Below, piece by piece: positions 1 to 38,839 of a stretch of 64,000 bases of DNA. The first letter of the stretch is position 1. Each line of letters begins with the position of its first letter. Location of the stretch: the sequence record OR083247.1. One strand, given 5' to 3'. The DNA comes from Escherichia phage Bf23. Below the pieces are notes generated by a model that was given only the letters and a program-made list of their open reading frames with translations, did no database searches and was not told the origin of the DNA. The position numbers and the translations under genes were made by a program.

Positions 1-55
1 CGAACCCCCAACTTCTGGTTGGCAACCAAAAATTATACCCTTTAACTACGAACGC
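1..55 (-). tRNA. tRNA-Gly(GCC), 3' part cut by window edge
   Basis: Minus-strand fold: acceptor GCGTTCG, D-arm GTTA/AAGGGTA/TAAT, anticodon stem TTTGG/CCAGA (one G-U), loop TTGCCAA; T-loop runs off the window start. Confidence 0.5.
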
Positions 56-64
56 AAAATAAGT

Positions 65-186
65 CATTCTAGGCAGGATTCGAACCTGCTATCACTTGTG
101 CGGACTTACGAGAACCATTCTTTCACTCGAATCGAACGAGCTTCTGCCCTAGCCAAGCTGGTTTCCCCATCAACCACGCTAGAATG
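65..186 (-). ncRNA. tRNA-like element, non-canonical (about 121 nt, no encoded CCA)
   Basis: T-arm GCAGG/TTCGAAT/CCTGC at 73-89; perfect 7-bp acceptor-like pairing between 66-72 and 179-185; D-arm-like TGGT..ACCA; no canonical anticodon arm found. Confidence 0.3.
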
Positions 187-307
187 TTTGATTGTTTTCA
201 GTGCAAGAGTCCGAGTCTTGGACACGACCGCTTCGCAAGTACATAGGCAGCTTATCATGAGTCAGCACTTCCGAATTGCTAGCTCCGTGTTCTGCACTGA
301 AATTTTA

Positions 308-655
308 TTAGTTTAACCGTAAAGTATTATCTACTTCACCATTAATTGTTCGGCATTCCTCTGGGATTGTCGGAGTGGCCTTGTATTCCCACCACTCAGC
401 ACCGTCATACTCCCCACGTTCTAGCCAAGTTCCATCGGCAAACCATACATTACCATAAAGTAATTGTCCACCGTATCCAGAATCATATTCAAAGTCTAGG
501 TTATTAAGAAAATCCTCAATATCTTCTTCTGTATAGCCTAAAGGTAGTACCCAAACTTTTTTATCCCCATAATACCCGAATTCTATTTTAATACACTTAA
601 CTTCAGAATTAGTATTTTTTAAGGCAAGTAACAACTCTTCTTTGGCATTACGCAT
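308..655 (-). CDS. hypothetical protein (115 aa)
   Basis: ORF on the same strand as neighbouring early genes; no recognised motif. Confidence 0.45.
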   Translation of the reverse strand: MRNAKEELLLALKNTNSEVKCIKIEFGYYGDKKVWVLPLGYTEEDIEDFLNNLDFEYDSGYGGQLLYGNVWFADGTWLERGEYDGAEWWEYKATPTIPEECRTINGEVDNTLRLN

Positions 656-680
656 AGTATATTCTCATACTGAATTATTT

Positions 681-757
681 TGGCGCGACCGATGGGATTT
701 GAACCCACATTCTCTCCCGTGACAGGGGAGTACCATTACCAAGCCAGCCCCGGTCGC
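681..757 (-). tRNA. tRNA-Asp(GTC)
   Basis: Acceptor GCGACCG/CGGTCGC, anticodon stem CTCCC/GGGAG, loop CTGTCAC, T-arm GTGGG/TTCAAAT/CCCAT, discriminator G, CCA encoded (TGG at 681-683 on plus). Confidence 0.8.
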
Positions 758-766
758 ATAATTTAT

Positions 767-952
767 TTACTCAGCTTTGAGTTTTTCAATAGCTGCATTA
801 AGTTCTTTAAGAAACTCTTTTCGTACATTAAGACGATTGAGACTTACTAGTATATCATGTTTAAGTTCTTCGATGTATTTCTTCTCAACTTCAATATTGT
901 TGATAGTGCTATCACGATGAACCTCTAGCTGTGCAATTACGTTCTTAGACAT
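767..952 (-). CDS. hypothetical small coiled-coil protein (61 aa)
   Basis: ORF track; charged heptad-like sequence. Confidence 0.35.
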   Translation of the reverse strand: MSKNVIAQLEVHRDSTINNIEVEKKYIEELKHDILVSLNRLNVRKEFLKELNAAIEKLKAE

Positions 953-1054
953 ACTTATTTCCTCAGTTATTAATGAAAATGGTATCTGTGGCTGAATTCG
1001 ATGTCAGCAATGATAGCTGGTTGGCTACCGGTTTACTTAACTCTACACAGAATT

Positions 1055-1132
1055 TGGCGGTTCCTGCTGGATTCGAACCAGCAACCCTCAACTTAACAAG
1101 ATGCCGCTCTAACCAATTAGAGCTAAGGAACC
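1055..1132 (-). tRNA. tRNA-Asn(GTT)
   Basis: Acceptor GGTTCCT/AGGAACC, D-arm GCTC..GAGC, loop TTGTTAA, T-arm GCTGG/TTCGAAT/CCAGC, discriminator G, CCA encoded; anticodon stem has mismatches (3 of 5 pairs). Confidence 0.6.
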
Positions 1133-1627
1133 ATATAAGTCAGAACTAGAGTTAATACGTTCTAGATATTTACTAAGATCTCTAGAATTTATACTAAACC
1201 ACTCATGTTCTTTTAAATCTTTGAAATACTGGTGAATTAGTTTTTCACCTTTTCGTTTGTCAAACCAAAAAGACCAATGCTCTAACTTATAATCCCTATA
1301 AGGGGAATAAGTCTGATATTGAGCTAATCTCTCTTTTGGATTTTGACTCATGCCTATTTTATACTGATTTTTCCATGCAGGATTACTAATACAGTATACA
1401 AAACCTTCAGAAATAGGAAGTTTATTTTCCTGCTTAAACTTTATAAAGGAAAGTGCAGCAAGTTTTCTCGAATACATAGTATTTGTATTCTTTTTGGTAT
1501 TACCATTGGTTCCTGAAAGATTTATATATTCTTCCATAAATCTTTGGATTAGTTCTGCAGTTATATAGAAGGGCTCATTAGTAACAACGCCTTTCTTTAC
1601 CAAACTATCAAAAACTTTTGTATGCAC
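1109..1627 (-). CDS. GIY-YIG / T5orf172-like domain protein (172 aa)
   Basis: Motif GFVYCISNP..YKIGMSQNP..RLAQYQT matches the GIY-YIG-like T5orf172 pattern; 3' end overlaps tRNA-Asn by about 24 nt. Confidence 0.55.
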   Translation of the reverse strand: MHTKVFDSLVKKGVVTNEPFYITAELIQRFMEEYINLSGTNGNTKKNTNTMYSRKLAALSFIKFKQENKLPISEGFVYCISNPAWKNQYKIGMSQNPKERLAQYQTYSPYRDYKLEHWSFWFDKRKGEKLIHQYFKDLKEHEWFSINSRDLSKYLERINSSSDLYGSLALIG

Positions 1628-1648
1628 TACGCCTTTCCTTTAGTAATT

Positions 1649-1724
1649 TGGACGACCGCATGAGATTTGAACTCACATAAAAAGGATTTGCAATCCTTCG
1701 CCTAAGCCATTCAGCCAACGGTCG
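1649..1724 (-). tRNA. tRNA-Cys(GCA)
   Basis: Anticodon stem AAGGA/TCCTT, loop TTGCAAA, T-arm GTGAG/TTCAAAT/CTCAT, acceptor 7 bp with one G-U, discriminator U73 (Cys identity element), CCA encoded. Confidence 0.8.
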
Positions 1725-1902
1725 ATTTATCTTGTTTTTCGAGATCTTCAAATTCTAAATCATTGAAGTTCCCTAGAGTACGGGAGTAGAACCCGTCTCC
1801 TGCGTCATAGCCTGATTTGCCACAATCACACATTTTAAATTCACGAAGATGTGTAAAAACATGTTCAGAACCACAACACTTAAATCTAACTAATCGTTTC
1901 AT
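1711..1902 (-). CDS. small Cys-rich protein, possible zinc ribbon (63 aa)
   Basis: CC..H..C.C spacing in the translated ORF; stop overlaps the tRNA-Cys 5' end. Confidence 0.4.
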   Translation of the reverse strand: MKRLVRFKCCGSEHVFTHLREFKMCDCGKSGYDAGDGFYSRTLGNFNDLEFEDLEKQDKSTVG

Positions 1903-1931
1903 TAGCTTCTCCAGTTCAATTTATGTAATTA

Positions 1932-2240
1932 TTATATAGAACTTTTGGAAACTAAGCAACTACATTTTTTTAAGAATTTGATGCCTTTCTTTTTCTTCTT
2001 ATATTTCCACGTTAATGGATTTTGTCGATTATGAACGCTTGAGATCTTTGTCTCGTCAAAGTTCTTCAATATCATGTAATCACAGGATAATTGTTTTAGT
2101 GGAATGTGATCCCCGTCAAAAGCGTATACATAAGGCTGTTGACTAGCACGATAATGATAGACTTTGTTAATTCTACGTTTCAGCGACTTATCCGCACAGT
2201 AAATAAAGAAGTTTTCAGGATGCACTAGCATCTCCTTCAA
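1932..2240 (-). CDS. hypothetical protein (102 aa)
   Basis: ORF track; lysine-rich C-terminus. Confidence 0.4.
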   Translation of the reverse strand: MKEMLVHPENFFIYCADKSLKRRINKVYHYRASQQPYVYAFDGDHIPLKQLSCDYMILKNFDETKISSVHNRQNPLTWKYKKKKKGIKFLKKCSCLVSKSSI

Positions 2241-2242
2241 TT

Positions 2243-2317
2243 TGGTGCACCCTGTTCGAATTGAACGAACCTCTCAAGCTCTTCAGGCAAGCGCTAATCC
2301 ATCTCAGCTAAAGGTGC
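2243..2317 (-). tRNA. tRNA-Phe(GAA)
   Basis: Acceptor GCACCTT/AGGGTGC (one G-U), D-stem GCTG/TAGC, loop CTGAAGA, T-arm GTTCG/TTCAATT/CGAAC, discriminator A73, CCA encoded; anticodon stem carries two U-U mismatches. Confidence 0.55.
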
Positions 2318-2323
2318 AAATTT

Positions 2324-2394
2324 TGGCAGGGGTAAAGGTATTCGAAACCTTTTCATGGGTTTTGTAGGCCCATTTGCAACCTATGCGTACCCCA
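2324..2394 (-). tRNA. tRNA-like gene, anticodon unassigned (short, possibly degenerate)
   Basis: CCA encoded, T-arm AAGGT/TTCGAAT/ACCTT, 6-bp acceptor GGGGTA/TACCCC; middle region only 35 nt and no canonical 7-nt anticodon loop resolved. Confidence 0.35.
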
Positions 2395-2403
2395 ATTGTT
2401 AAT

Positions 2404-2480
2404 TGGCGTCCTGTGCGGGGATCGAACCCGCAAACCCTACCTTGAAAGGGTAGTGACTTTACCCGTTTGTCTAACAGGAC
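2404..2480 (-). tRNA. tRNA-Glu(TTC)
   Basis: Perfect acceptor GTCCTGT/ACAGGAC, anticodon stem CTACC/GGTAG, loop CTTTCAA, T-arm GCGGG/TTCGATC/CCCGC, discriminator G, CCA encoded. Confidence 0.8.
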
Positions 2481-2486
2481 TTAAAT

Positions 2487-2574
2487 TGGTAGGGGAGGAT
2501 GGAGTCGAACCACCCGAGTCGCAATGACAACTAATTTACAGTCAGCTCTGCTACCACTTACAGAATACTCCCCC
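2487..2574 (-). tRNA. tRNA-Tyr(GTA), type II with long variable arm
   Basis: Anticodon loop CTGTAAA with stem GCTGA/TTAGT (two G-U), variable arm about 15 nt, T-arm GGTGG/TTCGACT/CCATC, discriminator A73, CCA encoded; 88 nt. Confidence 0.65.
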
Positions 2575-2699
2575 ATATTTGAATGAAAAGTAAGTCGGTT
2601 AAACTCAAGGTGGAATATTTCAGGATTTCCTGACTTTACCCCTCAAAGCAGCTCGCTTAGTTACTTCTCATTCAGATATGTTTTCCAAATTAGATAACT

Positions 2700-2728
2700 A
2701 TTATACCAAGTTTTAGGGCACTGAGCAA
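2700..2728 (-). promoter_or_regulatory. sigma70-type promoter reading into the tRNA cluster (-35 TTGCTC, 17-nt spacer, -10 TATAAT)
   Basis: Hexamers read on the minus strand immediately upstream of tRNA-Tyr. Confidence 0.5.
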
Positions 2729-2756
2729 GTCAGATTTTGAAGAACTTGCTCAGTGC
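2718..2756. terminator. 12-bp perfect hairpin GCACTGAGCAAG/CTTGCTCAGTGC downstream of ORF 2765-3040
   Basis: Inverted repeat with 15-nt loop; overlaps the -35 of the tRNA promoter; no strong U-tract, so could be a processing or attenuation structure. Confidence 0.4.
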
Positions 2757-2764
2757 TGTATTAG

Positions 2765-3040
2765 TTAGTCGAACTTAGGAGTGACAGCTAAGGAAAACGG
2801 AAGTTCAAAAATTTCTTCGCCCTCATTACTAACGGTAACTACACGACCTTTAAGTTCAGACATTGAAATATCAATATCAGCTTTTGCATCTGGAGCCATG
2901 CCAGCTTCAATACACTTAGCTTTAACTTCCGGTAAAAGCTCTACATTATAGAGATAGAGCCACTCAATCTCACCTTCCCAGTCTTCCCAGGATTTACAGA
3001 TTGCACTTTCAATACCAGTTGCTACAACACGATTTTGCAT
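2765..3040 (-). CDS. hypothetical protein (91 aa)
   Basis: ORF track; same-strand context. Confidence 0.5.
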   Translation of the reverse strand: MQNRVVATGIESAICKSWEDWEGEIEWLYLYNVELLPEVKAKCIEAGMAPDAKADIDISMSELKGRVVTVSNEGEEIFELPFSLAVTPKFD

Positions 3041-29998: not shown

Positions 29999-30781
29999 TT
30001 GATGAAAATCGAAATTCCAACACAATGTCCCTCTTGTGGTTCTAAGCTAGATCTTGTCAACGGACAATTATTTTGTCGTAATAAGTCCAACTGTCCAGCG
30101 CAATCAAGTAAGTTAATTGAGAACTTCTGTACAAAAATGAAGTTAAAGGGTTTTGGCCCGAAAACTATTGAGAAGCTGGAGCTGACGAAGATTTCAGAAC
30201 TATTTTACCTAACCGAAGAAGATTTGGTTAGAGCCGTGGGTAGCAAGGTTGCCGCTAAGTTAATTAGCGAATTAAATACTAAAGTTCGCGGAGACATTGA
30301 CTTTGGTTCAGTTCTCGGTTCTTTAGGAATCTCTCTAATTGGAGAGGTTGCAGCAAAGAAATTATCCCAAAATTGCACTAGCTTCCACGATGTGAAGGCT
30401 GACGGCAAGGCTGGAGAAAACTATAAAGCCTGGCTAAATTCCCCACAAGGCAAGGATGTTATCGAATTACCGTGGAAATTCACAACTGGTATTAAAGGTG
30501 CTAAAGCTGACATCATCATTACTGATGGTCTAGTAGCCCAACCAAACGGAATAACGGTATGTATTACCGGATCTTTGCAAGATTTTGCAAATAGAACGGA
30601 TGCAACAAACTATTTAGAAGGTCTAGGATATACGGTTAAGAAATCCGTTACCAAAGACGTCAAATACCTAATCTGTGAGGATGAATCGAAGCGTTCTTCC
30701 TCATCTTATAAGAAAGCCGAAACGAATGGGATAGAAATCCTGTCGATTAAAGAACTATTGGAGAAAAATAATAATGTCTAA
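29999..30781 (+). CDS. NAD-dependent DNA ligase, C-terminal part (subunit B: zinc finger, HhH, BRCT-like; 260 aa)
   Basis: Zn finger CPSCGS..C..C, helix-hairpin-helix-like GFGPKTIEKL. Confidence 0.75.
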   Translation: MMKIEIPTQCPSCGSKLDLVNGQLFCRNKSNCPAQSSKLIENFCTKMKLKGFGPKTIEKLELTKISELFYLTEEDLVRAVGSKVAAKLISELNTKVRGDIDFGSVLGSLGISLIGEVAAKKLSQNCTSFHDVKADGKAGENYKAWLNSPQGKDVIELPWKFTTGIKGAKADIIITDGLVAQPNGITVCITGSLQDFANRTDATNYLEGLGYTVKKSVTKDVKYLICEDESKRSSSSYKKAETNGIEILSIKELLEKNNNV

Positions 30782-31541
30782 ACTGAACTGGAACGTAGAA
30801 GGTGTAACCGAGTCTCTGAAAGCAAAAGCCACTGCTCTGGGTGTTGATGTAATCTCTCAAGAACAAGTAGCTGCTATCGCCGCTGAACTGGCTGCTGAAA
30901 CTGGCAAAGACGTTACCGCTCGCTCTGTTGGCTCTAAGCTGCGTAAAGAAGGTTTCGAAGTACAGAAAGCTAACGAAGTACAGAAATCCCCGTGGACTCC
31001 TGAGCAGGAAGCTGAACTGGTTGATTTCCTGAACGCTCACGCTGGTCAGTATACCTATGCTGAAATCGCTGCTGCTGTAGCTGGTGGTCAGTTCGGTGCT
31101 AAACAGGTACAGGGTAAGATCCTGAGTCTGGAAATGACCGCTTCTGTTAAACCAACTGAAAAAGCTGCTGCTGTTCGTTCCTTCACTCCGGATGAAGAAA
31201 CTGATTTTGTTAATCAGGTTGTTGCTGGTGCTACTATTGAAGCTATCGCTGCTCACTTCGGTCGTAATATCAAGCAGATCCGTGGTAAAGCTCTGAGCCT
31301 GCTTCGTGAAGGTCGTATCGCTGCTATGCCGGTACAGGAAACCTCAAGTGCTAAAACTCGTGAAGATCTGTTAGAAGGTCTGGATCTGGTTAACATGACT
31401 GTTGCTGAGATCGCTGAGAAAACTGGTAAATCTGAGCGCGGTGTTAAATCTATGCTGTCTCGTCGTGGTCTGGTTGCTAAGGACTATGATGGTGCCGCTA
31501 AGCGTGCTAAACTGGATGCAAAAGCTGCGGCTGCTGAATAA
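30774..31541 (+). CDS. abundant DNA-binding protein (T5 D5-like) with four internal HTH-like repeats (255 aa)
   Basis: Four repeats of an (I/V)AxIAxxxG(K/R)..(K/R)xxGKxLSL pattern; codon usage typical of highly expressed genes. Confidence 0.55.
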   Translation: MSKLNWNVEGVTESLKAKATALGVDVISQEQVAAIAAELAAETGKDVTARSVGSKLRKEGFEVQKANEVQKSPWTPEQEAELVDFLNAHAGQYTYAEIAAAVAGGQFGAKQVQGKILSLEMTASVKPTEKAAAVRSFTPDEETDFVNQVVAGATIEAIAAHFGRNIKQIRGKALSLLREGRIAAMPVQETSSAKTREDLLEGLDLVNMTVAEIAEKTGKSERGVKSMLSRRGLVAKDYDGAAKRAKLDAKAAAAE

Positions 31542-31558
31542 TCTGGTAAATTAAACCT

Positions 31559-31591
31559 AAGGGGAGGGGGCTATGCTCCTTCCCCTTTTTG
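31559..31591 (+). terminator. rho-independent terminator
   Basis: Hairpin AAGGGGA..TCCCCTT followed by TTTTT. Confidence 0.6.
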
Positions 31592-31623
31592 CATTTAGAA
31601 GGCACGAAAGCGTGCAAAGGAGA

Positions 31624-33096
31624 ATGACCTTGTTTAACGTGCAAGCTGTAGTGTTGAAGATGCTTCTAGCTTCCGAACAGAAGCAAATAGCATTGGAAAC
31701 ATTCTCAAAACTGCATAAAGATCATTTTAATGACGCTTTCTCCTCAATTTACCAAGCCGTCCAGAATTATTATAAAAAATATAACACAATGCCGTCCATT
31801 GACGCACTTATGCTTGAAGCTAATAGGAACGCCCGCCTTTCTCAAGCTCTAGTCGTCTTAGCTAACACTCAAATTCCAGAAGTGAGCATGGAACAGGCAC
31901 TTGAAGTCCTAGAGGCTGAATATACACAGGATTTATTCCTGAAGCTTCTAGAAACAGACGTGCTTCAAGATTTAACAATGCTGGATCAGGGAGAAATTCT
32001 CAACCGAGTTGCCTCCCTTCACTTAAAATTAGAAGAGAAAGTAACGAATACTGGAAAAGTATTCAACGCAGATAACATGCGTATTTTCCAGAGAGAAGAA
32101 GATACCAAACTGAACTTAATCGCTCTTGGTATTTGTAATGAGTTCGACGCTCAAATTGGTTTAGCTCGCACAGAAACGTTACTGCTTGGTGGTTGGCGTG
32201 GTACTGGTAAATCCATTATCTGTTCAAACATACAGGTTCAGCAATATTTGAATGGGGATATTGCTCCATACTTCTCAATTGAGATGAAAGAACATGAAGT
32301 ATTTAGACGTAATCTAGCCATGTTAGCTGGTGTATCAGCACTAGCAATGCGTAATAATACTCTAGAAGGTGCGGCTCTGTTGAGATTAGCCAGAACTAGA
32401 GCTAGGATGTTTAACGGTGGTGAAGAGCTTTTCGATAACTTCGTTAAACAGTACACAATGGCTAAGATGAGTGATTTCTACGATATGGAAAGTAAGCTAA
32501 TAGAAGGGTATGAGCTACATACTCCTATGATTATTGTTTATGATCCTGAGCTGTCTATTACAACAGTTGACGTAGAATTAAATAAATTAGTTGCTAGATA
32601 TGGGGATAAAGTTACAGTAGCTTTACTTGACTATATTAACCAAACCCGACTTCCAGATTCTAAAACCATTGATATGTATGACTGGAAAGAACAGATGGTT
32701 GTTAGCTCGTCTTTCAAATCTATCTGTCAGAAACATAACGTGGCTGGTGTAGCTCCTTACCAGATCGATCAAGATGGTAGAACACGTATGTCAAAAGGGA
32801 TTCTTGATTCCGCAGACATGGCTGCTAATCTTAACGCTGCAAAAGCTGATAATGGTCAAGGTGCTATTATGTTTGACTTCGTTAAGACTCGTTCTTCTGA
32901 TAGCGTGAAGTTTATGCCTAAAATGAACTGGGAAACCCTGCGGATGGATAACACTACCAACCTAGCAATGGAAGATATATCTCAAATGGAAGCTGAGTTC
33001 GTTATCCCTATTGAGAAGGATAAGCCGGCTCAATCTAAACGTGCTAAGAAAGACAAAGCTGAAAATTCAACAGGTGAACAGGCCAGCGATATATGA
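31624..33096 (+). CDS. RecA-fold ATPase / DnaB-like replicative helicase (about 490 aa)
   Basis: Walker A-like GGWRGTGKS; start moved to the ATG at 31624 after an AAGGAG RBS. Confidence 0.6.
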   Translation: MTLFNVQAVVLKMLLASEQKQIALETFSKLHKDHFNDAFSSIYQAVQNYYKKYNTMPSIDALMLEANRNARLSQALVVLANTQIPEVSMEQALEVLEAEYTQDLFLKLLETDVLQDLTMLDQGEILNRVASLHLKLEEKVTNTGKVFNADNMRIFQREEDTKLNLIALGICNEFDAQIGLARTETLLLGGWRGTGKSIICSNIQVQQYLNGDIAPYFSIEMKEHEVFRRNLAMLAGVSALAMRNNTLEGAALLRLARTRARMFNGGEELFDNFVKQYTMAKMSDFYDMESKLIEGYELHTPMIIVYDPELSITTVDVELNKLVARYGDKVTVALLDYINQTRLPDSKTIDMYDWKEQMVVSSSFKSICQKHNVAGVAPYQIDQDGRTRMSKGILDSADMAANLNAAKADNGQGAIMFDFVKTRSSDSVKFMPKMNWETLRMDNTTNLAMEDISQMEAEFVIPIEKDKPAQSKRAKKDKAENSTGEQASDI

Positions 33097-33983
33097 GTAG
33101 AATAACAGAACTACTTGATCTGAAAGGCATTGAATATAAAGACACAGGTGGGGACATCCTCATCTGTTGTCTCAATCCAGATCATGACGATAAACACCCA
33201 AGTTTGCGTATTGACCCTGAAACAGGTATTATGCACTGCTTGAGTTGTGGCTTCGGTAAGGGTATACCGAGCATTTACCATTATTTTAATGAGACTCAGT
33301 ACCGACAGTCCCCAAGGCTATCGCAAGTACGTAAAAAGATTTCAGAGATTAGGAATGGATCAACGAATCTTGCAATCCCTGAATCTGCTTACCTTTTCGA
33401 AGGTGATTTCCGAGGTATAAGTTCTAAGACCTTGAAGAAATATTTTGCTTTCCAACACCAAGCAGACTGGGAAGGCAGAATTGTATTCCCAATCACAGAT
33501 GCTGTTGGACGCAATATCCTATTTTTGGGTCGTTCTATAAACAGTTCTGCCCCTCCTAAATACTTAGTAAAACCAAAACAAGTTTCACCACCAATTTTTC
33601 CTGTACGATATAATACTCCAGTCCTTATTCTAGTTGAAGGCATCTTTGATATGCTAAACCTAGAGGATAATGGTATAGACTATGCTTCTTGTTGCTTTGG
33701 TACACATCAGTTTACTTCGGATAACATTGCAGATAAGTTCAGTCCTTATATTATTGCCGGCGTAAAAGTTGTTGTTATCTTACTAGATAATGATGCTTCT
33801 GGTAATAAAGCTGCACAAGCATTGGCCAAGCTAATTCGTACAAAAACGCGTTTAACACCTATAGTTGCTAACTTTCTTCTGCCTGAAGGTAAAGACCCTG
33901 GTGACTTAAATAAAGAAGAGATTGATATGTTAGCAAAACGTATTGAAATTTTAGTTGCTGAATCGCTTAAAGATTTGGTATAA
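33093..33983 (+). CDS. DnaG-like DNA primase (296 aa)
   Basis: Zinc-binding CC..H..H..C..C N-terminus and Toprim-like LVEGIFD, LLDND motifs. Confidence 0.75.
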   Translation: MSRITELLDLKGIEYKDTGGDILICCLNPDHDDKHPSLRIDPETGIMHCLSCGFGKGIPSIYHYFNETQYRQSPRLSQVRKKISEIRNGSTNLAIPESAYLFEGDFRGISSKTLKKYFAFQHQADWEGRIVFPITDAVGRNILFLGRSINSSAPPKYLVKPKQVSPPIFPVRYNTPVLILVEGIFDMLNLEDNGIDYASCCFGTHQFTSDNIADKFSPYIIAGVKVVVILLDNDASGNKAAQALAKLIRTKTRLTPIVANFLLPEGKDPGDLNKEEIDMLAKRIEILVAESLKDLV

Positions 33984-34009
33984 TAGTCCTAAATAACTGA
34001 GGAGCTACT

Positions 34010-34339
34010 ATGGAATATGTATATATTTATGAGGATGTTCCAGTATACGATAGTATAACACACGAAGAGGTTAAACTAGAGCTGTTTACAGTACTAGAGT
34101 CCCTTAATAAACGGAAGGATTTTCATTTATTTGGTGATCCTAAATTACCTGCATCTTATATTTTCTTTAAAGTAAAAGATACAGGTCAAGAGGTGTATCT
34201 AACTTATGATTGGGCTGTTGTAGAAAATACTGAGCAATCTATGAAAGTGTTAGGCGCTTTTCTGCGTATAGATGAAGAATTTCAGGCACTAGAAAAGCAG
34301 CGCAATGAAATGCGTAAATTACTACATACCTATAAATAG
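34010..34339 (+). CDS. hypothetical protein (109 aa)
   Basis: ORF with RBS GAGGAG. Confidence 0.5.
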   Translation: MEYVYIYEDVPVYDSITHEEVKLELFTVLESLNKRKDFHLFGDPKLPASYIFFKVKDTGQEVYLTYDWAVVENTEQSMKVLGAFLRIDEEFQALEKQRNEMRKLLHTYK

Positions 34340-34342
34340 TAT

Positions 34343-34371
34343 TTGCTATTATCCCAATATTTTGATATAAT
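34343..34371 (+). promoter_or_regulatory. T5-type early promoter (-35 TTGCTA, 17-nt spacer, -10 TATAAT) upstream of the DNA polymerase
   Basis: Consensus hexamers. Confidence 0.7.
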
Positions 34372-34432
34372 ATATTGGTAAGTTAGAGAAGAAACACTGA
34401 AGTTATACTTACTTACCAAGAGGAGATTAAAT

Positions 34433-37000
34433 TTGAAAATCGCAGTAGTTGATAAAGCTCTAAACAACACTCGTTATGATAAACATTTCCAGCTATACGG
34501 CGAGGAAGTTGATGTATTCCATATGTGTAACGAGAAGTTATCCGGTCGTTTGCTCAAAAAGCATATTACCATCGGGACTCCGGAAAACCCATTTGACCCA
34601 AATGATTATGATTTTGTTATACTGGTAGGTGCCGAACCTTTCCTGTACTTTGCAGGTAAGAAAGGTATTGGTGATTATACCGGTAAACGTGTAGAGTATA
34701 ATGGATATGCTAACTGGATTGCGAGTATCAGCCCAGCCCAGTTACACTTTAAACCTGAAATGAAACCAGTTTTTGATGCAACAGTAGAGAATATCCACGA
34801 TATTATCAACGGTCGTGAGAAGATTGCAAAAGCTGGTGATTACCGTCCTATTACTGACCCTGATGAGGCAGAAGAATATATCAAGATGGTGTATAATATG
34901 GTTATCGGACCTGTCGCATTCGACTCCGAAACCTCAGCACTATACTGTCGAGATGGTTATCTGCTTGGTGTTTCTATGTCTCACCAAGAGTATCAGGGTG
35001 TATATATCGATTCTGATTGTCTCACAGAGGTTGCAGTATATTATCTCCAGAAAATTCTGGATAGTGAAAACCACACTATTGTTTTTCACAACTTGAAGTT
35101 TGATATGCACTTTTATAAGTACCATCTGGGGCTTACTTTTGATAAAGCACATAAAGAACGCAGGCTCCATGATACCATGTTGCAGCACTATGTTCTAGAT
35201 GAACGTCGTGGTACTCATGGCTTGAAGTCTCTAGCAATGAAGTATACCGATATGGGTGACTATGACTTTGAACTGGATAAGTTCAAAGATGATTACTGCA
35301 AAGCACATAAAATCAAGAAAGAAGATTTCACCTATGATTTAATTCCGTTTGATATTATGTGGCCTTACGCTGCGAAAGATACAGATGCCACCATACGTTT
35401 GCACAACTTCTTCTTACCAAAGATTGAGAAGAATGAAAAACTTTGCAGTCTGTATTACGATGTTTTGATGCCTGGTTGCGTATTCTTGCAACGTGTTGAA
35501 GATCGTGGTGTACCTATTTCTATCGATCGTTTAAAAGAAGCTCAGTATCAGTTAACCCATAATCTGAATAAAGCCCGTGAGAAACTGTACACTTATCCAG
35601 AAGTTAAACAGCTAGAACAAGATCAGAATGAAGCGTTTAACCCGAACTCTGTTAAGCAACTTCGTGTTCTTCTGTTCGATTATGTTGGTTTGACTCCAAC
35701 TGGTAAGTTAACAGATACTGGGGCAGATTCTACGGATGCAGAAGCTCTGAATGAACTGGCTACGCAGCATCCGATTGCTAAAACTCTTCTAGAGATTCGT
35801 AAGCTGACTAAGCTAATCTCTACTTATGTTGAGAAGATTCTTCTGAGTATTGATGCAGATGGTTGCATTCGTACTGGTTTTCATGAACATATGACTACTT
35901 CTGGTCGTCTGAGTTCTTCTGGCAAACTGAACCTGCAACAGTTACCCCGTGATGAATCTATTATCAAAGGTTGTGTAGTAGCTCCTCCTGGGTATCGTGT
36001 AATCGCGTGGGACTTAACAACTGCGGAAGTTTATTATGCTGCTGTTCTATCTGGGGATAGAAATATGCAACAGGTATTTATCAACATGAGAAATGAACCT
36101 GATAAATACCCAGACTTCCACTCTAACATCGCACACATGGTGTTTAAGCTGCAATGCGAACCCCGTGATGTTAAGAAGTTGTTCCCAGCACTACGTCAGG
36201 CAGCTAAGGCAATTACCTTTGGTATTTTGTATGGTTCTGGCCCAGCTAAAGTAGCTCATTCTGTTAATGAGGCTCTTCTGGAACAGTCTGCTAAAACAGG
36301 CGAACCGTTTGTTGAATGTACTGTTGCGGATGCGAAGGACTATATCGAAACTTACTTCGGTCAGTTCCCACAGCTTAAGCGTTGGATTGATAAGTGCCAC
36401 GATCAGATCAAGAATCATGGATTTATCTATAGTCACTTTGGTCGTAAACGTCGTCTGCATAATATCCATTCCGAAGACCGTGGCGTTCAGGGTGAAGAAA
36501 TTCGTTCTGGATTTAACGCAATCATTCAGTCTGCTTCTTCTGATAGTCTCCTTTTAGGTGCTGTAGATGCAGATAATGAGATCATTTCTCTTGGCTTAGA
36601 ACAAGAGATGAAGATTGTTATGCTGGTTCATGACTCCGTAGTTGCTATTGTTCGCGAGGATTTGATCGACCAGTACAATGAAATCCTGATTCGTAATATT
36701 CAGAAAGACCGTGGTATCAGTATTCCTGGCTGTCCTATTGGTATTGATTCAGATTCTGAAGCTGGAGGTTCTCGTGACTATTCTTGTGGTAAGATGAAGA
36801 AACAGCACCCATCAATCGCTTGTATTGATGATGATGAATATACTCGTTATGTCAAGGGTGTATTACTTGATGCAGAGTTCGAGTATAAGAAACTAGCTGC
36901 AATGGATAAAGAGCATCCAGACCACAGCAAGTACAAGGATGATAAGTTTATTGCTGTATGTAAAGATCTGGATAACGTGAAAAGGATTCTCGGTGCTTAA
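34433..37000 (+). CDS. DNA polymerase, family A (T5 DNA polymerase-like, 855 aa), TTG start
   Basis: 3'-5' exonuclease motifs; motif A-like DL..AE, motif B KAITFGILYG, motif C LVHDS; length matches the T5 polymerase as I recall it. Confidence 0.9.
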   Translation: MKIAVVDKALNNTRYDKHFQLYGEEVDVFHMCNEKLSGRLLKKHITIGTPENPFDPNDYDFVILVGAEPFLYFAGKKGIGDYTGKRVEYNGYANWIASISPAQLHFKPEMKPVFDATVENIHDIINGREKIAKAGDYRPITDPDEAEEYIKMVYNMVIGPVAFDSETSALYCRDGYLLGVSMSHQEYQGVYIDSDCLTEVAVYYLQKILDSENHTIVFHNLKFDMHFYKYHLGLTFDKAHKERRLHDTMLQHYVLDERRGTHGLKSLAMKYTDMGDYDFELDKFKDDYCKAHKIKKEDFTYDLIPFDIMWPYAAKDTDATIRLHNFFLPKIEKNEKLCSLYYDVLMPGCVFLQRVEDRGVPISIDRLKEAQYQLTHNLNKAREKLYTYPEVKQLEQDQNEAFNPNSVKQLRVLLFDYVGLTPTGKLTDTGADSTDAEALNELATQHPIAKTLLEIRKLTKLISTYVEKILLSIDADGCIRTGFHEHMTTSGRLSSSGKLNLQQLPRDESIIKGCVVAPPGYRVIAWDLTTAEVYYAAVLSGDRNMQQVFINMRNEPDKYPDFHSNIAHMVFKLQCEPRDVKKLFPALRQAAKAITFGILYGSGPAKVAHSVNEALLEQSAKTGEPFVECTVADAKDYIETYFGQFPQLKRWIDKCHDQIKNHGFIYSHFGRKRRLHNIHSEDRGVQGEEIRSGFNAIIQSASSDSLLLGAVDADNEIISLGLEQEMKIVMLVHDSVVAIVREDLIDQYNEILIRNIQKDRGISIPGCPIGIDSDSEAGGSRDYSCGKMKKQHPSIACIDDDEYTRYVKGVLLDAEFEYKKLAAMDKEHPDHSKYKDDKFIAVCKDLDNVKRILGA

Positions 37001-37490
37001 TTTCAATCTGCCCGTCTATGCGTTACGGGCGTTTGTATCAATTGAGCAAGAAGGTGATTATTCCGTAATTACAACAAGATATAATAAATATGTGCTAGAT
37101 AACAGGAAGTTGCCTGGCACGTTTTCTCAACGTAGGCTTATTCTATTTGAGAAACGGAAAGAATTACCATACAAGCTCTATCCTATTAGGGGCAGAATAT
37201 CAATGTTGTCTCAATTAGTTGGGTCAAAGCGTAACCAATTTATAGATTCTGATGGAAATCTTATTAATTGGAAGAAAACTACGTTCTATGATGTTGTCAC
37301 CTCTAAAGTTTTACATTCAGCTAGAATTTATAATGGAAAATACCAATGCTATGTGGCTAAAGTCCCTTATCCATTTGTATTATCCTATGTTCCAGCTTAT
37401 ATAAGCTATATTCTGGTAAATAATAGCCCTGTTATTTATCAAGTCCATCAAGAGGAGCCTGAAATTCCTAGACTTAGAATAAAATTATGA
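36993..37490 (+). CDS. hypothetical protein (165 aa) with atypical codon usage
   Basis: Overlaps the polymerase stop and the helicase start; enriched in AGG/AGA/ATA/CTA codons compared with neighbours. Confidence 0.45.
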   Translation: MLNFNLPVYALRAFVSIEQEGDYSVITTRYNKYVLDNRKLPGTFSQRRLILFEKRKELPYKLYPIRGRISMLSQLVGSKRNQFIDSDGNLINWKKTTFYDVVTSKVLHSARIYNGKYQCYVAKVPYPFVLSYVPAYISYILVNNSPVIYQVHQEEPEIPRLRIKL

Positions 37491-38839
37491 AGGTTGTTAT
37501 ATCTAATAAAGCCTATTTCAAGCCCGATGATGAACTTTGGGATTATTGTAGTAAGCAAACCACTTATCACATAGAGACAATGACTAGTAAATACCCTATC
37601 ATGTATAAGAATAGTGGTGTTGTTGCCAAAGAGATTAAGTGGATTCCTATTACGCGTCTGGACTTACTAGATGCTAAAGGAGTAAAATACGAATTAGTCG
37701 ATAAACGCACATTAGCTCCGGTAGATATACCAAAACCTAAGTTCAAGCTGCGTGAAGAAGATCAGCTTCCAATATACGAAGAATGCGATGATACCTGTAT
37801 TATTAATGGTAAGCCTGGATTTGGTAAAACTATCCTAGCCCTTGCACTTGCGTATAAATTTGGCCAGAAAACTTTGGTAATCTGTACGAATACATCCATT
37901 CGTGAAATGTGGGCGGCAGAAGTTCGTAAATGGTTTGGGTTTGAACCAGGCATCATAGGTTCTGGGAAATACAATATTGATCCACCAATTGTAGTCAGTA
38001 ATATTCAAACAGTGAATAAACATGCGAATAATCTTTCTAAAGTATTCGGTACTGTTATAGTTGATGAAGTTCACCATTGTGTGGCTACAACTTTCACTAA
38101 CTTCCTAGAAATATCATGTGCTCGCTATAAAATTGGACTATCTGGTACACTAAAACGAAAAGATGGTTTACAAGTTATGTTCAAAGATTTCTTTGGATAT
38201 AAGATATTTAGCCCACCGGTTAATAATACTGTTGCACCTACAATCCATAGGTACTCCGTGCCTGTTGAGCTATCAGGAAACCAAAACGTACCGTGGGCAT
38301 TACGTGCTAACGATGTGTATAACCATCCTGAATATCGAGAGACTATTATAAACCTAGCACATTTATATGTGAATATGGGACATAAAGTACTCATTGTAAG
38401 TGATAGAACAGAGTTAATCCAAACAGTACTAGAAGCACTATCTCAGCGAGGAGTCACAACCTATGAGATTATTGGCGCAACCCACTTAGATGACCGATTA
38501 AAAATTCAGGAAGATATAGCAAAAGGTGGGCCTTGTGTGCTTGCAGCAGCTCAAAGTATCTTCTCGGAAGGTATTTCCCTTAATGAGCTATCTTGTTTAA
38601 TAATGGGAAGCCTCATTAATAATGAATCTCTCATTGAACAGCTTGCAGGCCGTGTTCAACGTATTGTTGATGGTAAACTCGACCCTATTGTTGTAGATCT
38701 AATTATGAAAGGTGGCACTGGGCTAAGACAGGCTTCTGGACGTATGGCAGTATATCGTAACAATGGGTGGAAAACTATTACTATGACTCCGGAGAAAGCA
38801 GTTCAATTAGCTAAAATTGCATTTGGCAACAGCTCATAA
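37487..38839 (+). CDS. SF2 DNA helicase (T5 D10-like, 450 aa)
   Basis: Walker A GKPGFGKT, DEAH-like VDEVHH, helicase C-terminal motifs. Confidence 0.8.
   Translation: MKVVISNKAYFKPDDELWDYCSKQTTYHIETMTSKYPIMYKNSGVVAKEIKWIPITRLDLLDAKGVKYELVDKRTLAPVDIPKPKFKLREEDQLPIYEECDDTCIINGKPGFGKTILALALAYKFGQKTLVICTNTSIREMWAAEVRKWFGFEPGIIGSGKYNIDPPIVVSNIQTVNKHANNLSKVFGTVIVDEVHHCVATTFTNFLEISCARYKIGLSGTLKRKDGLQVMFKDFFGYKIFSPPVNNTVAPTIHRYSVPVELSGNQNVPWALRANDVYNHPEYRETIINLAHLYVNMGHKVLIVSDRTELIQTVLEALSQRGVTTYEIIGATHLDDRLKIQEDIAKGGPCVLAAAQSIFSEGISLNELSCLIMGSLINNESLIEQLAGRVQRIVDGKLDPIVVDLIMKGGTGLRQASGRMAVYRNNGWKTITMTPEKAVQLAKIAFGNSS

What the first reader, a model, noticed from the sequence alone, without database searches (positions are those of the whole stretch)
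65..186. 121-nt tRNA-like RNA with a perfect 7-bp acceptor helix but no canonical anticodon arm
This element has a canonical T-arm (GCAGG/TTCGAAT/CCTGC), a D-arm-like hairpin and a perfect 7-bp pairing between 66-72 and 179-185, yet it is about 45 nt too long for a tRNA and I found no 7-nt anticodon loop with U33/R37. Unlike its neighbours it lacks an encoded CCA. It could be a stable small RNA derived from a tRNA, a tRNA gene with an insertion, or two overlapping tRNA remnants.
Basis: seen in the sequence. Interest (0 to 1): 0.55.

Follow-up and report, generated by a model that had tools for sequence, protein, structure and literature searches.

The report
Phage T5/BF23 tRNA-like RNA2
This is the already annotated "RNA2" gene of phage T5/BF23: a tRNA-shaped RNA whose anticodon loop is replaced by a conserved 55-nt module, one member of a widespread phage-only family with no known function.

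Summary
On the minus strand, window 66-185 folds as a tRNA body: a 7-bp acceptor stem, D arm, 5-bp anticodon stem and T arm. It has no anticodon loop and no encoded CCA.

It is 100% identical to the GenBank feature "rna2 / RNA2, tRNA-like RNA with unknown functions" of phage BF23, and T5 carries the same feature. Its existence is therefore already known.

New here: it belongs to a broad family found in T5-like phages, Acinetobacter T4-like phages and many environmental and jumbo-phage contigs. A covariance model built only from non-T5 members hits the window at 104 bits (E about 6e-26), while ordinary tRNAs score 47.6 bits or less. Across 55 distinct sequences, 95% of cells pair and 25 of 31 pairs show compensatory changes.

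The most conserved part is the insert. It has helix P1 (GGGY/RUCC, with an invariant G.U), a UAA bulge, and a three-way junction. The junction carries a second T-loop hairpin and a small A-Y-G-G-U hairpin, which I read as a second tRNA "elbow".

The element sits in tRNA arrays, and Rfam has no matching family. A viable T5 deletion mutant lacks the region. Function is unknown. My best guess, at low confidence, is a non-decoding, non-chargeable tRNA mimic or decoy built on a tRNA scaffold.

The parts
62..186 (-). Whole RNA2 gene as annotated in BF23 (AJ604530 5701-5825). The covariance-model match is 66-185.
   Evidence: 100% identity to the BF23 rna2 feature. Model R1 hit of 104.2 bits.
179..186 (-). 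Acceptor 5' strand AUUCUAG (185-179), plus C186 at position -1, which pairs with G65.
   Evidence: Sequence. All 7 acceptor pairs covary in the family. A -1:73 pair occurs in 21 of 32 lineages.
160..178 (-). Positions 8-9 linker (C178, G177, U176) and the D arm: stem 175-172 with 163-160, loop GAUGGGGA 171-164.
   Evidence: D-stem pairs covary. Tertiary-type covariation at 8:14 and 15:48.
154..158 (-). Anticodon-stem equivalent, 5' strand GCUUG. It pairs with 98-94.
   Evidence: All 5 pairs show compensatory changes; 97-98% of cells pair.
99..153 (-). The 55-nt module that replaces the anticodon loop. In order: J1 153-150; P1 149-146 with 105-102 (G-C, G-C, G.U, C-G); bulge UAA 108-106; P2 144:110 and 143:111; P3 141-137 with 129-125, capped by the T-loop UUCGAUU 136-130; linker GAAA 124-121; P4 120:112 and 119:113 with pentaloop AUGGU 118-114; J4 GCA 101-99.
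   Evidence: Invariant GGG, CGUAA, UCC and UUCRAUU. P3 pairs, the second pair of P2 and the closing pair of P4 covary. This module accounts for most of the extra score over ordinary tRNAs.
94..98 (-). Anticodon-stem equivalent, 3' strand CAAGU.
73..93 (-). Variable loop GAUA (93-90) and T arm GCAGG / UUCGAAU / CCUGC (89-73).
62..72 (-). Acceptor 3' strand CUAGAAU (72-66), G65 at the discriminator position, and tail ACU (64-62). No CCA is encoded.
   Evidence: Only 2 of 32 family lineages encode CCA, against about 90% of neighbouring tRNAs by a loose test.

Best explanation
**What it is.** This is the rna2 gene of a T5/BF23-type phage. It encodes a non-decoding RNA built on a tRNA scaffold.

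**Shown.**
- It has a complete tRNA body: acceptor stem, D arm, anticodon stem and T arm, with signs of the usual 8:14 and 15:48 tertiary contacts.
- It lies on the same strand as the phage tRNA genes and among them, with no promoter or terminator of its own.
- Its anticodon loop is replaced by a 55-nt module that is the most conserved part of the molecule.
- The module contains helix P1 (GGGY/RUCC), a UAA bulge, and a three-way junction bearing a second T-loop hairpin and a small A-Y-G-G-U hairpin.

**Inferred.**
- It is co-transcribed with the tRNAs and cut out by the host tRNA-processing enzymes: RNase P at the 5' end and exonucleases or RNase BN at the 3' end.
- The two inner loops dock as D and T loops do in a tRNA. 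This would form a second "elbow" on a stack of about 12-13 layers at the end of a long anticodon arm.
- It cannot read a codon.
- It is probably not aminoacylated. CCA is almost never encoded although the neighbouring tRNAs encode it, position -1 often pairs with position 73, and the acceptor sequence is free to vary.

**Most likely mode of action (speculative).** It acts in trans as a tRNA mimic. The tRNA body gives stability and access to tRNA-binding proteins, and the conserved module is the working surface. It may titrate or block a host factor that recognises tRNA shape, for example a tRNA-directed defence nuclease or a tRNA-processing or modifying enzyme.

**Confidence.** I put about 0.9 on the identity and architecture, and about 0.25 on the decoy function. 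The single figure given for this explanation (0.55) is a compromise between the two.
For: **Identity**
- 99.9-100% identity to BF23 AJ604530, where the stretch is annotated "rna2, tRNA-like RNA with unknown functions". T5 AY543070 has the same feature with the word "stable".

**Family and structure**
- Pattern scans of viral and metagenome contigs found diverse members.
- Model R1, built from 20 non-T5 members, hits window 66-185 at 104.2 bits. tRNAs score 47.6 bits or less.
- In 55 distinct sequences, 94.9% of cells pair and 25 of 31 pairs have compensatory changes. The covariation score is 0.83, against 0.15 or less for slid controls.
- P2 and P4 pairs covary, as do the tertiary pairs 8:14 and 15:48.

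**Context**
- All tRNAs in the member loci lie on the same strand as the element, often 2-12 nt away.
- No promoter-like site upstream of the gene's 5' end and no terminator-like site at the gene (one weak promoter-like match lies inside the gene).
- No conserved neighbouring protein.

**3' end**
- CCA is encoded in 2 of 32 lineages, against about 169 of 187 neighbouring tRNAs. A -1:73 pair occurs in 21 of 32.

**Phage-specific and dispensable**
- No match in 5,426 complete E. coli genomes.
- Only 1 genuine member among 120 pattern hits in bacterial genomes.
- The viable mutant T5Mos carries deletion 30661-38625, which spans rna2 at 32959-33083 (PMC11464382; coordinates). This fits an accessory or counter-defence role.
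Against: - There is no direct evidence for any target or phenotype.
- No expression or end-mapping data were accessible. "Stable RNA" rests only on a GenBank note.
- Without an anticodon loop it would be a poor mimic for nucleases that read the anticodon.
- Two lineages (Erwinia phage KEY and L037) do encode CCA, so charging is not excluded. E. coli can add CCA after transcription.
- The loop-loop docking of P3 and P4 is inferred from invariant residues, which cannot covary.
- The alignments were fitted to the structure (A2 by hand, A4 by the model), which inflates the pairing percentages somewhat.
Confidence: 0.55

Rival explanations
1. It is an aminoacylated carrier. After 3' trimming and CCA addition by the host enzyme, the RNA is charged and used outside normal decoding. 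It could serve as an amino-acid donor for a transferase, or as a minimal tmRNA-like ribosome-rescue RNA without a tag.
For: - It has a full acceptor/T-arm body.
- Two lineages encode N-CCA (KEY and L037).
- From my own knowledge, E. coli matures T4 tRNAs that lack an encoded CCA.
- The module shares short strings with tmRNA pseudoknot 1 (CGAGGG..CUCGUAA..CCGCA). P1 reads G-C, G-C, G.U like the tRNA-Ala and tmRNA acceptor end. Both are resemblances recalled from memory, noted.
Against: - CCA is absent in 30 of 32 lineages, while neighbouring tRNAs keep it.
- The frequent -1:73 pair buries the discriminator.
- The acceptor stem varies freely, and pair 3:70 is U-A here, so there is no G3.U70.
- There is no tag reading frame.
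- ARAGORN finds no tmRNA, and Rfam shows no tmRNA similarity even at E up to 10.
- The long rigid arm should clash with the ribosomal decoding site (inference).
Confidence: 0.1
2. It is a tRNA gene interrupted by an intron. The intron is removed to give a functional tRNA.
For: - The insertion sits exactly where the anticodon loop should be.
- The Rfam tRNA model accepts one family member (L088) as a tRNA with a large insertion, at 51.9 bits.
- ARAGORN in intron mode calls some members.
Against: - ARAGORN's intron positions and anticodons disagree between members: SeC, Phe, Ser, Arg, Trp and Ile. For 11 of 21 members it calls nothing.
- Removing the P1-closed module leaves N-C-G-A-G-C-A, with no U33 and no purine at 37.
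- The insert is more conserved than the "exons".
- At 55 nt it is far too small for a group I intron.
- The two bulges lie 5' of the strands of the 4-bp helix, the opposite stagger to an archaeal bulge-helix-bulge site (my analysis).
- No insert-less homologue exists in 50,697 phage records.
Confidence: 0.04
3. It is a decaying remnant of fused or tandem tRNA genes, with no function of its own. Or it is merely a cis-acting processing or stability signal in the polycistronic tRNA transcript.
For: - The module looks like the junction of two tandem tRNAs: a 3' half followed by a 5' half. A domain-swapped tandem dimer is a plausible origin (inference).
- tRNA-like structures can act as processing signals.
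- The gene is dispensable in the laboratory.
Against: - Sequence and structure are conserved, with compensatory changes, across T5-like phages, Acinetobacter T4-like phages and diverse environmental and jumbo-phage contigs.
- About 25 invariant positions lie in the module. That is far more than a processing signal needs.
- Ordinary tRNAs already provide processing signals every few nucleotides in the same arrays.
Confidence: 0.1

Closest known systems
rna2 (RNA2) of phages T5 and BF23, as annotated in GenBank AY543070 and AJ604530
   Same: It is the same gene. Identity to BF23 is 100% over 125 nt, with the same position between ORF trn2.10 and tRNA-Gly2.
   Different: Nothing differs. The records give only "tRNA-like (stable) RNA with unknown functions". 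The family, the module architecture and the covariation were worked out here.
Other small stable RNAs of phage tRNA clusters: T4 species 1 and 2 RNAs (rnaC, rnaD), and T5 RNA1, RNA3, RNAI and RNAIII
   Same: They are encoded within tRNA clusters, carry tRNA-like ends and have unknown function. T5 RNA1 also looks like a tRNA body with a large insert in the anticodon loop.
   Different: They are not homologous. Model R1 gives 17.8 bits for rnaC and 18.2 bits for RNA1, against 104 bits for RNA2. Their inserts are unrelated.
tmRNA (tRNA-like domain plus helix 2 and pseudoknot 1)
   Same: It also has a tRNA-like top half with no anticodon loop and a long helix leaving the body. It shares short strings with pseudoknot 1 and has a G-C, G-C, G.U helix. 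These similarities are recalled from memory.
   Different: RNA2 has a full D stem, no G3.U70 in the acceptor, no CCA and no tag reading frame, and is only 120 nt long. ARAGORN and Rfam find no tmRNA.
Bacterial Y-RNA-like YrlA and other tRNA mimics (mascRNA, viral tRNA-like structures)
   Same: They are non-coding RNAs that copy the D/T-loop elbow of tRNA and are handled by tRNA enzymes (from my own knowledge).
   Different: In YrlA the tRNA-like part is closed at the acceptor end, and the 5' and 3' ends form the Ro-binding stem. Here the ends form a true acceptor stem, and the extra elbow sits at the anticodon end. No Rfam match.
Engineered "tRNA scaffolds" (the Ponchon and Dardel approach), in which the anticodon arm of a tRNA is replaced by an RNA of interest
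   Same: The design is the same: the tRNA body gives processing and stability, and the payload replaces the anticodon loop (from my own knowledge).
   Different: Those are man-made. Here the arrangement is natural, and the payload is a conserved module resembling a tRNA elbow.

Membership tests
Canonical tRNA (Rfam RF00005) | 7-bp acceptor stem, D arm, and T arm with a T-psi-C loop | tested here: met
Canonical tRNA (Rfam RF00005) | 7-nt anticodon loop with U33 and a purine at 37; total length about 70-95 nt | tested here: not met
   55 nt lie between the anticodon-stem strands and the total is 120 nt. ARAGORN makes no call. Rfam gives only a partial match of 19.7 bits, below the gathering score of 29.
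Canonical tRNA (Rfam RF00005) | 3' CCA end and aminoacylation | not testable with these tools
   CCA is not encoded. Whether it is added later cannot be told from sequence.
T5/BF23 rna2 (annotated stable RNA) | Sequence identity and synteny with the annotated feature | tested here: met
   100% identity over 125 nt to AJ604530 5701-5825, with the same neighbouring genes.
RNA2-type "two-elbow" tRNA-like family (defined here) | A tRNA body; a module with GGGY..RUCC helix P1, CGUAA, an inner UUCRAUU hairpin and a YGG loop; and a significant hit by a model built from other members | tested here: met
   Model R1, built without T5-like sequences, gives 104.2 bits and E about 6e-26, full length, with no non-standard pair.
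tmRNA | G3.U70 in the acceptor stem, encoded or added CCA, a tag reading frame with a resume codon, and pseudoknots | tested here: not met
   Pair 3:70 is U-A and there is no reading frame. ARAGORN finds no tmRNA. Rfam shows none at E up to 10.
tRNA with a group I intron | An intron of more than about 200 nt with the P1-P9 core | tested here: not met
   The insert is 55 nt, and Rfam gives no intron hit.
tRNA with an archaeal-type bulge-helix-bulge intron | Two 3-nt bulges, each 3' of its strand of a 4-bp helix, and a canonical loop after excision | tested here: not met
   A 4-bp helix and a 3-nt UAA bulge exist, but both bulges lie 5' of the helix strands. The residual loop lacks U33 and R37. 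ARAGORN in intron mode is inconsistent.
T4 species 1 and 2 RNAs (rnaC, rnaD) | Homology in sequence and structure | tested here: not met
   R1 scores rnaC at 17.8 bits (E = 0.045) and does not list rnaD.
Anti-defence tRNA mimic or decoy (functional class) | Binds or neutralises a host factor directed at tRNA; gives a phenotype on hosts carrying that defence | not testable with these tools
   Only indirect support: it is restricted to phages, dispensable in the laboratory, and sits in tRNA arrays that are known to counter tRNA-targeting defences.

The most novel reading that the evidence does not exclude
RNA2 would be the founding, never-characterised member of a widespread phage-specific class of "two-elbow" tRNA-like RNAs. 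In this class a natural tRNA scaffold carries a second D/T-loop elbow with an invariant G.U helix in place of the anticodon. It would act in trans on a host tRNA-recognising machine, for example by blocking a tRNA-directed immune nuclease or hijacking a tRNA-processing enzyme. The family is absent from Rfam 15, and I found no paper that describes it. Other tRNA bodies with unrelated anticodon-loop inserts occur in the same arrays, which hints at a general phage strategy of displaying RNA modules on tRNA scaffolds.
Probability: 0.3. Interest if true: 0.7.

Novelty: already known. Interest (0 to 1): 0.45.

Why it matters
Phage tRNA clusters have recently been shown to counter host defences that cut tRNAs. 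The small tRNA-like RNAs that sit among those tRNAs have been known for decades and are still unexplained.

This work shows three things about T5 RNA2: it belongs to a deeply conserved family restricted to phages; it has a precise covarying architecture; and it almost never keeps the CCA end. Together these turn a vague annotation into a testable object.

The structure model, the alignment of 55 distinct sequences, and the existing viable T5 deletion mutants would allow direct experiments on what such RNAs do.

If nothing comes of that, the finding remains what the databases already say: a known tRNA-like RNA of unknown function.

Tried and rejected
- **Known RNA families.** Rfam at gathering score and at E up to 10, on the whole window, on 1-3000 and on 55-195, gave nothing but a sub-threshold partial tRNA hit.
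- **ARAGORN.** The standard run makes no call. In intron mode, on 21 members, the anticodons and intron sites are inconsistent.
- **Thermodynamic folding.** The fold is a cloverleaf with a long arm, but z is only -1.3, so it is not informative alone.
- **Intron readings.** Both the bulge-helix-bulge and group I readings were rejected (see the membership tests).
- **tmRNA pseudoknot 1 and tRNA-Ala acceptor resemblance.** I noted these from memory. The proposed stem S1 does not covary (J1 is NCGA in only about half of the members), and no tool supports homology.
- **T-box stem I distal motifs, K-turn, sarcin-ricin loop, L11-binding region, Ro-binding site.** I considered these by eye and found no consistent match.
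- **Insert-less ancestral tRNA.** A BLAST search with the tRNA body alone found only RNA2 loci.
- **Conserved neighbouring protein.** All-against-all comparison of ORFs from 35 diverse loci found no family in more than 4 loci.
- **Bacterial genomes.** E. coli genomes gave no match.
- **Literature.** Seven completed searches (one search failed on a short term) found no description of this RNA's structure or function. The original T5 papers from the 1980s to 2000s are not in the library.
- **Alternative BF23-only pairings.** CGAG with the downstream CUCG, and AGAA with UUCU, are not conserved in the family.

Full report
**What is at the site.** The window is a T5-like phage. Bases 1-3000 are 99.9% identical to the tRNA-gene region of phage BF23 (AJ604530) and about 97% identical to T5. 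All tRNA genes here run on the minus strand. Read on that strand, the finding is:

- C186
- acceptor strand AUUCUAG (185-179)
- CGU
- D arm GGUU/GAUGGGGA/AACC (175-160)
- A159
- GCUUG (158-154)
- 55 nt (153-99)
- CAAGU (98-94)
- GAUA
- T arm GCAGG/UUCGAAU/CCUGC (89-73)
- acceptor strand CUAGAAU (72-66)
- G65, then ACU

ARAGORN and Rfam do not call the element. The best Rfam match is a partial tRNA hit of 19.7 bits, below the gathering score of 29. The minimum-free-energy fold is the expected cloverleaf with a long arm, but it is not exceptional against shuffles (z = -1.3).

**It is an annotated gene.** In BF23 the stretch corresponding to window 62-186 is the feature "rna2: RNA2, tRNA-like RNA with unknown functions". 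T5 (AY543070, 32959-33083) carries the same feature, described as "tRNA-like stable RNA". So the existence of this RNA gene is already on record. I could not reach the primary papers, and seven completed literature searches (an eighth call failed on a short term) found nothing about its structure or function.

**It belongs to a wide, phage-restricted family.**
- BLAST finds the element in 435 phage records. These are mostly T5-like, with diverged copies in Yersinia phiR2-01, Pectobacterium DU_PP_V and Erwinia KEY. Partial matches occur in Acinetobacter T4-like phages such as Acj9.
- KEY has a completely different acceptor and D stem that still pair. The anticodon stem and inner hairpin differ by compensatory changes in phiR2-01 and DU_PP_V.
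- Two conserved strings of the insert (GTTCRATTC ... CGTAANTCC) were used to scan IMG/VR and JGI metagenomes. This recovered dozens of further members in contigs of very different sizes, including contigs of 160-570 kb.
None of 5,426 complete E. coli genomes has the element.

**Independent statistical test.** I aligned 20 members that are not T5-like and built covariance model R1 with my structure. The model matches window 66-185 end to end at 104.2 bits, E about 6e-26, with no non-standard pair. Ordinary tRNAs in the same search score 47.6 bits or less. There is a single copy in the window. T5 RNA1 (18.2 bits) and T4 species 1 RNA (17.8 bits) are not members.

**Structure and covariation.**
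- On a hand-anchored alignment of 25 sequences, 96% of cells pair and 24 of 29 pairs show changes on both sides.
- On the model-derived alignment of 67 hits (55 distinct), 94.9% of cells pair and 25 of 31 pairs have compensatory changes. The covariation score is 0.83, against 0.04-0.15 for slid controls.
- Both alignments were fitted to the structure, so the percentages lean high. The gap to the controls is nevertheless very large.
- A mutual-information scan ranks the helices first. It then picks out the classical tRNA tertiary pairs 8:14 (U-A to C-G) and 15:48 (G-C or A-U). This argues that the body folds like a real tRNA.

**The module that replaces the anticodon loop.** It is the most conserved part. 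Invariant or nearly invariant are GGG, a following G, the inner loop UUCRAUU with its closing G-C pair, YGG, CGUAA, UCC and GCA. My model, is as follows.
- An internal loop: J1 (usually NCGA) opposite J4 (GCA).
- P1, the 4-bp helix GGGY/RUCC. It contains G-C, G-C and an invariant G.U. Its last pair covaries as U-A or C-G, or is a U.U mismatch.
- A UAA bulge.
- P2: an invariant G-C pair plus a covarying pair (AU 16, UA 10, GC 9).
- A three-way junction bearing P3, a 4-6 bp hairpin whose pairs covary fully and whose loop is a T-loop.
- A short A-rich linker.
- P4, a mini-hairpin whose closing pair covaries (AU 15, UA 10, GU 3, CG 2, GC 2) around the pentaloop A-Y-G-G-U.

In the window these are P1 149-146/105-102, UAA 108-106, P2 144:110 and 143:111, P3 141-137/129-125, T-loop 136-130, linker 124-121, P4 120:112 and 119:113, and loop 118-114.

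A T-loop hairpin next to a GG loop is exactly what forms the elbow of a tRNA. I therefore infer a second elbow at the tip of a stack of about 12-13 layers. The docking itself is not shown, because the residues involved never vary.

The order of elements (stem strand, T-like arm, linker, D-like arm, stem strand) is what the junction between two tandem tRNA genes would give. A domain-swapped tandem tRNA dimer is thus a plausible origin. This is inference only.

Natural variants show which parts tolerate change. One T5-sized contig lacks P3 (L263). One carries about 45 extra nt before P4 (L247). The Acinetobacter phage copies lack a D stem.

**Ends and context.**
- In 32 lineages with different acceptor stems, only 2 encode CCA after the discriminator. 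About 90% (169 of 187, by a loose test) of the tRNAs in the same loci do encode it. In 21 of 32 lineages, position -1 can pair with position 73.
- Every tRNA found in the member loci is on the same strand as the element, and many lie 2-12 nt away.
- In the window there is no promoter-like site upstream of the gene's 5' end and no terminator-like site at the gene (one weak promoter-like match lies inside the gene, at 95-66). tRNA-Gly2 starts 6 nt downstream of the annotated 3' end.
- No protein family recurs next to the element across diverse loci.
- The viable mutant T5Mos has lost 30661-38625, which includes rna2, and it still grows on ordinary E. coli (PMC11464382). The RNA is therefore dispensable in the laboratory.

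**Interpretation.** Shown: this is a selected, structured RNA with a genuine tRNA body. It cannot decode, and selection does not maintain a CCA end on it. Inferred: it is co-transcribed with the tRNAs, released by the tRNA-processing enzymes, stable because it looks like a tRNA, and not aminoacylated.

The function is unknown. The reading I consider most likely is a trans-acting tRNA mimic or decoy that presents the conserved module to a host factor recognising tRNA shape. This reading rests on four points: the restriction to phages, the dispensability in the laboratory, the location in tRNA arrays that are known to counter tRNA-targeting defences, and the scaffold-plus-payload design. It remains speculative (about 0.25).

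The rivals are an aminoacylated carrier or mini-tmRNA, an intron-containing tRNA, and a functionless remnant or mere processing signal. Each is less consistent with the data. The specific reasons are given under the rival explanations.

**Verdict.** The feature itself is already known as T5/BF23 RNA2. This analysis adds the family, the covariation-supported architecture with a second elbow-like module, the systematic lack of CCA, and the absence of any matching Rfam family. Interest is moderate: an old unexplained RNA becomes experimentally tractable, but no function has been established.

Noticed in passing
window 2324-2394 (-) and window 980-1053 (-): BF23 and T5 annotate a tRNA-Trp and a "tRNA-like RNA3" at these places (locus L001 5324-5394 and 3980-4053). 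Neither ARAGORN nor Rfam reports them in the window. They are either very atypical tRNAs or over-annotation.
   Followed up: no
window 187-307 (-): The 121-nt spacer between ORF trn2.10 and RNA2 folds with a long-range stem of about 10 bp (UUUCAGUGCA...UGCACUGAAA) closing a branched structure (z = -2.05). The 3' strand of that stem is conserved upstream of RNA2 in T5-like phages. It could be a processing site or another small RNA.
   Followed up: partly
L001 598-741 (BF23 RNA1); L063 9734-9878; L247 9907-10039 and 11992-12118: Other RNAs in phage tRNA arrays have a normal tRNA body with large, unrelated inserts in place of the anticodon loop. The 145-nt one in L063 has loop ends CUUUU...AA. 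It could be read as a tRNA-Lys(UUU) loop split by about 66 nt. tRNA scaffolds carrying inserts may be a general phage theme.
   Followed up: partly
L003 2451-2681 (Acinetobacter phage Acj9) and L004 1483-1629 (Yersinia phage phiR2-01): "Hypothetical protein" genes Acj9p148 and g056 are annotated straight across the RNA2-type element. They are probably spurious ORF calls over an RNA gene.
   Followed up: no
L003 about 2565-2660 (Acj9): Directly after the RNA2-type element lies another non-canonical tRNA-like sequence. Its ends pair (GGAAAG...CUUUCC) and it finishes with G-CCA.
   Followed up: no
L085 652-1136: A GOLLD RNA (Rfam RF02032, 176 bits) lies in the same environmental phage tRNA array as an RNA2-type element.
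   Followed up: no
L263 about 1051-1149; L247 7919-8084: These are natural variants of the family. L263 lacks the inner T-loop hairpin: P1, the UAA bulge and a 7-bp hairpin remain, and it scores 41 bits. L247 carries about 45 extra nt between the inner hairpin and the GG loop.
   Followed up: partly
window 1-55 (-): The window starts inside tRNA-Gly2 (anticodon GCC in the BF23 annotation). T5 itself lacks this gene, because its similarity to the window begins at base 63. So the DNA immediately downstream of RNA2 differs between close relatives.
   Followed up: no
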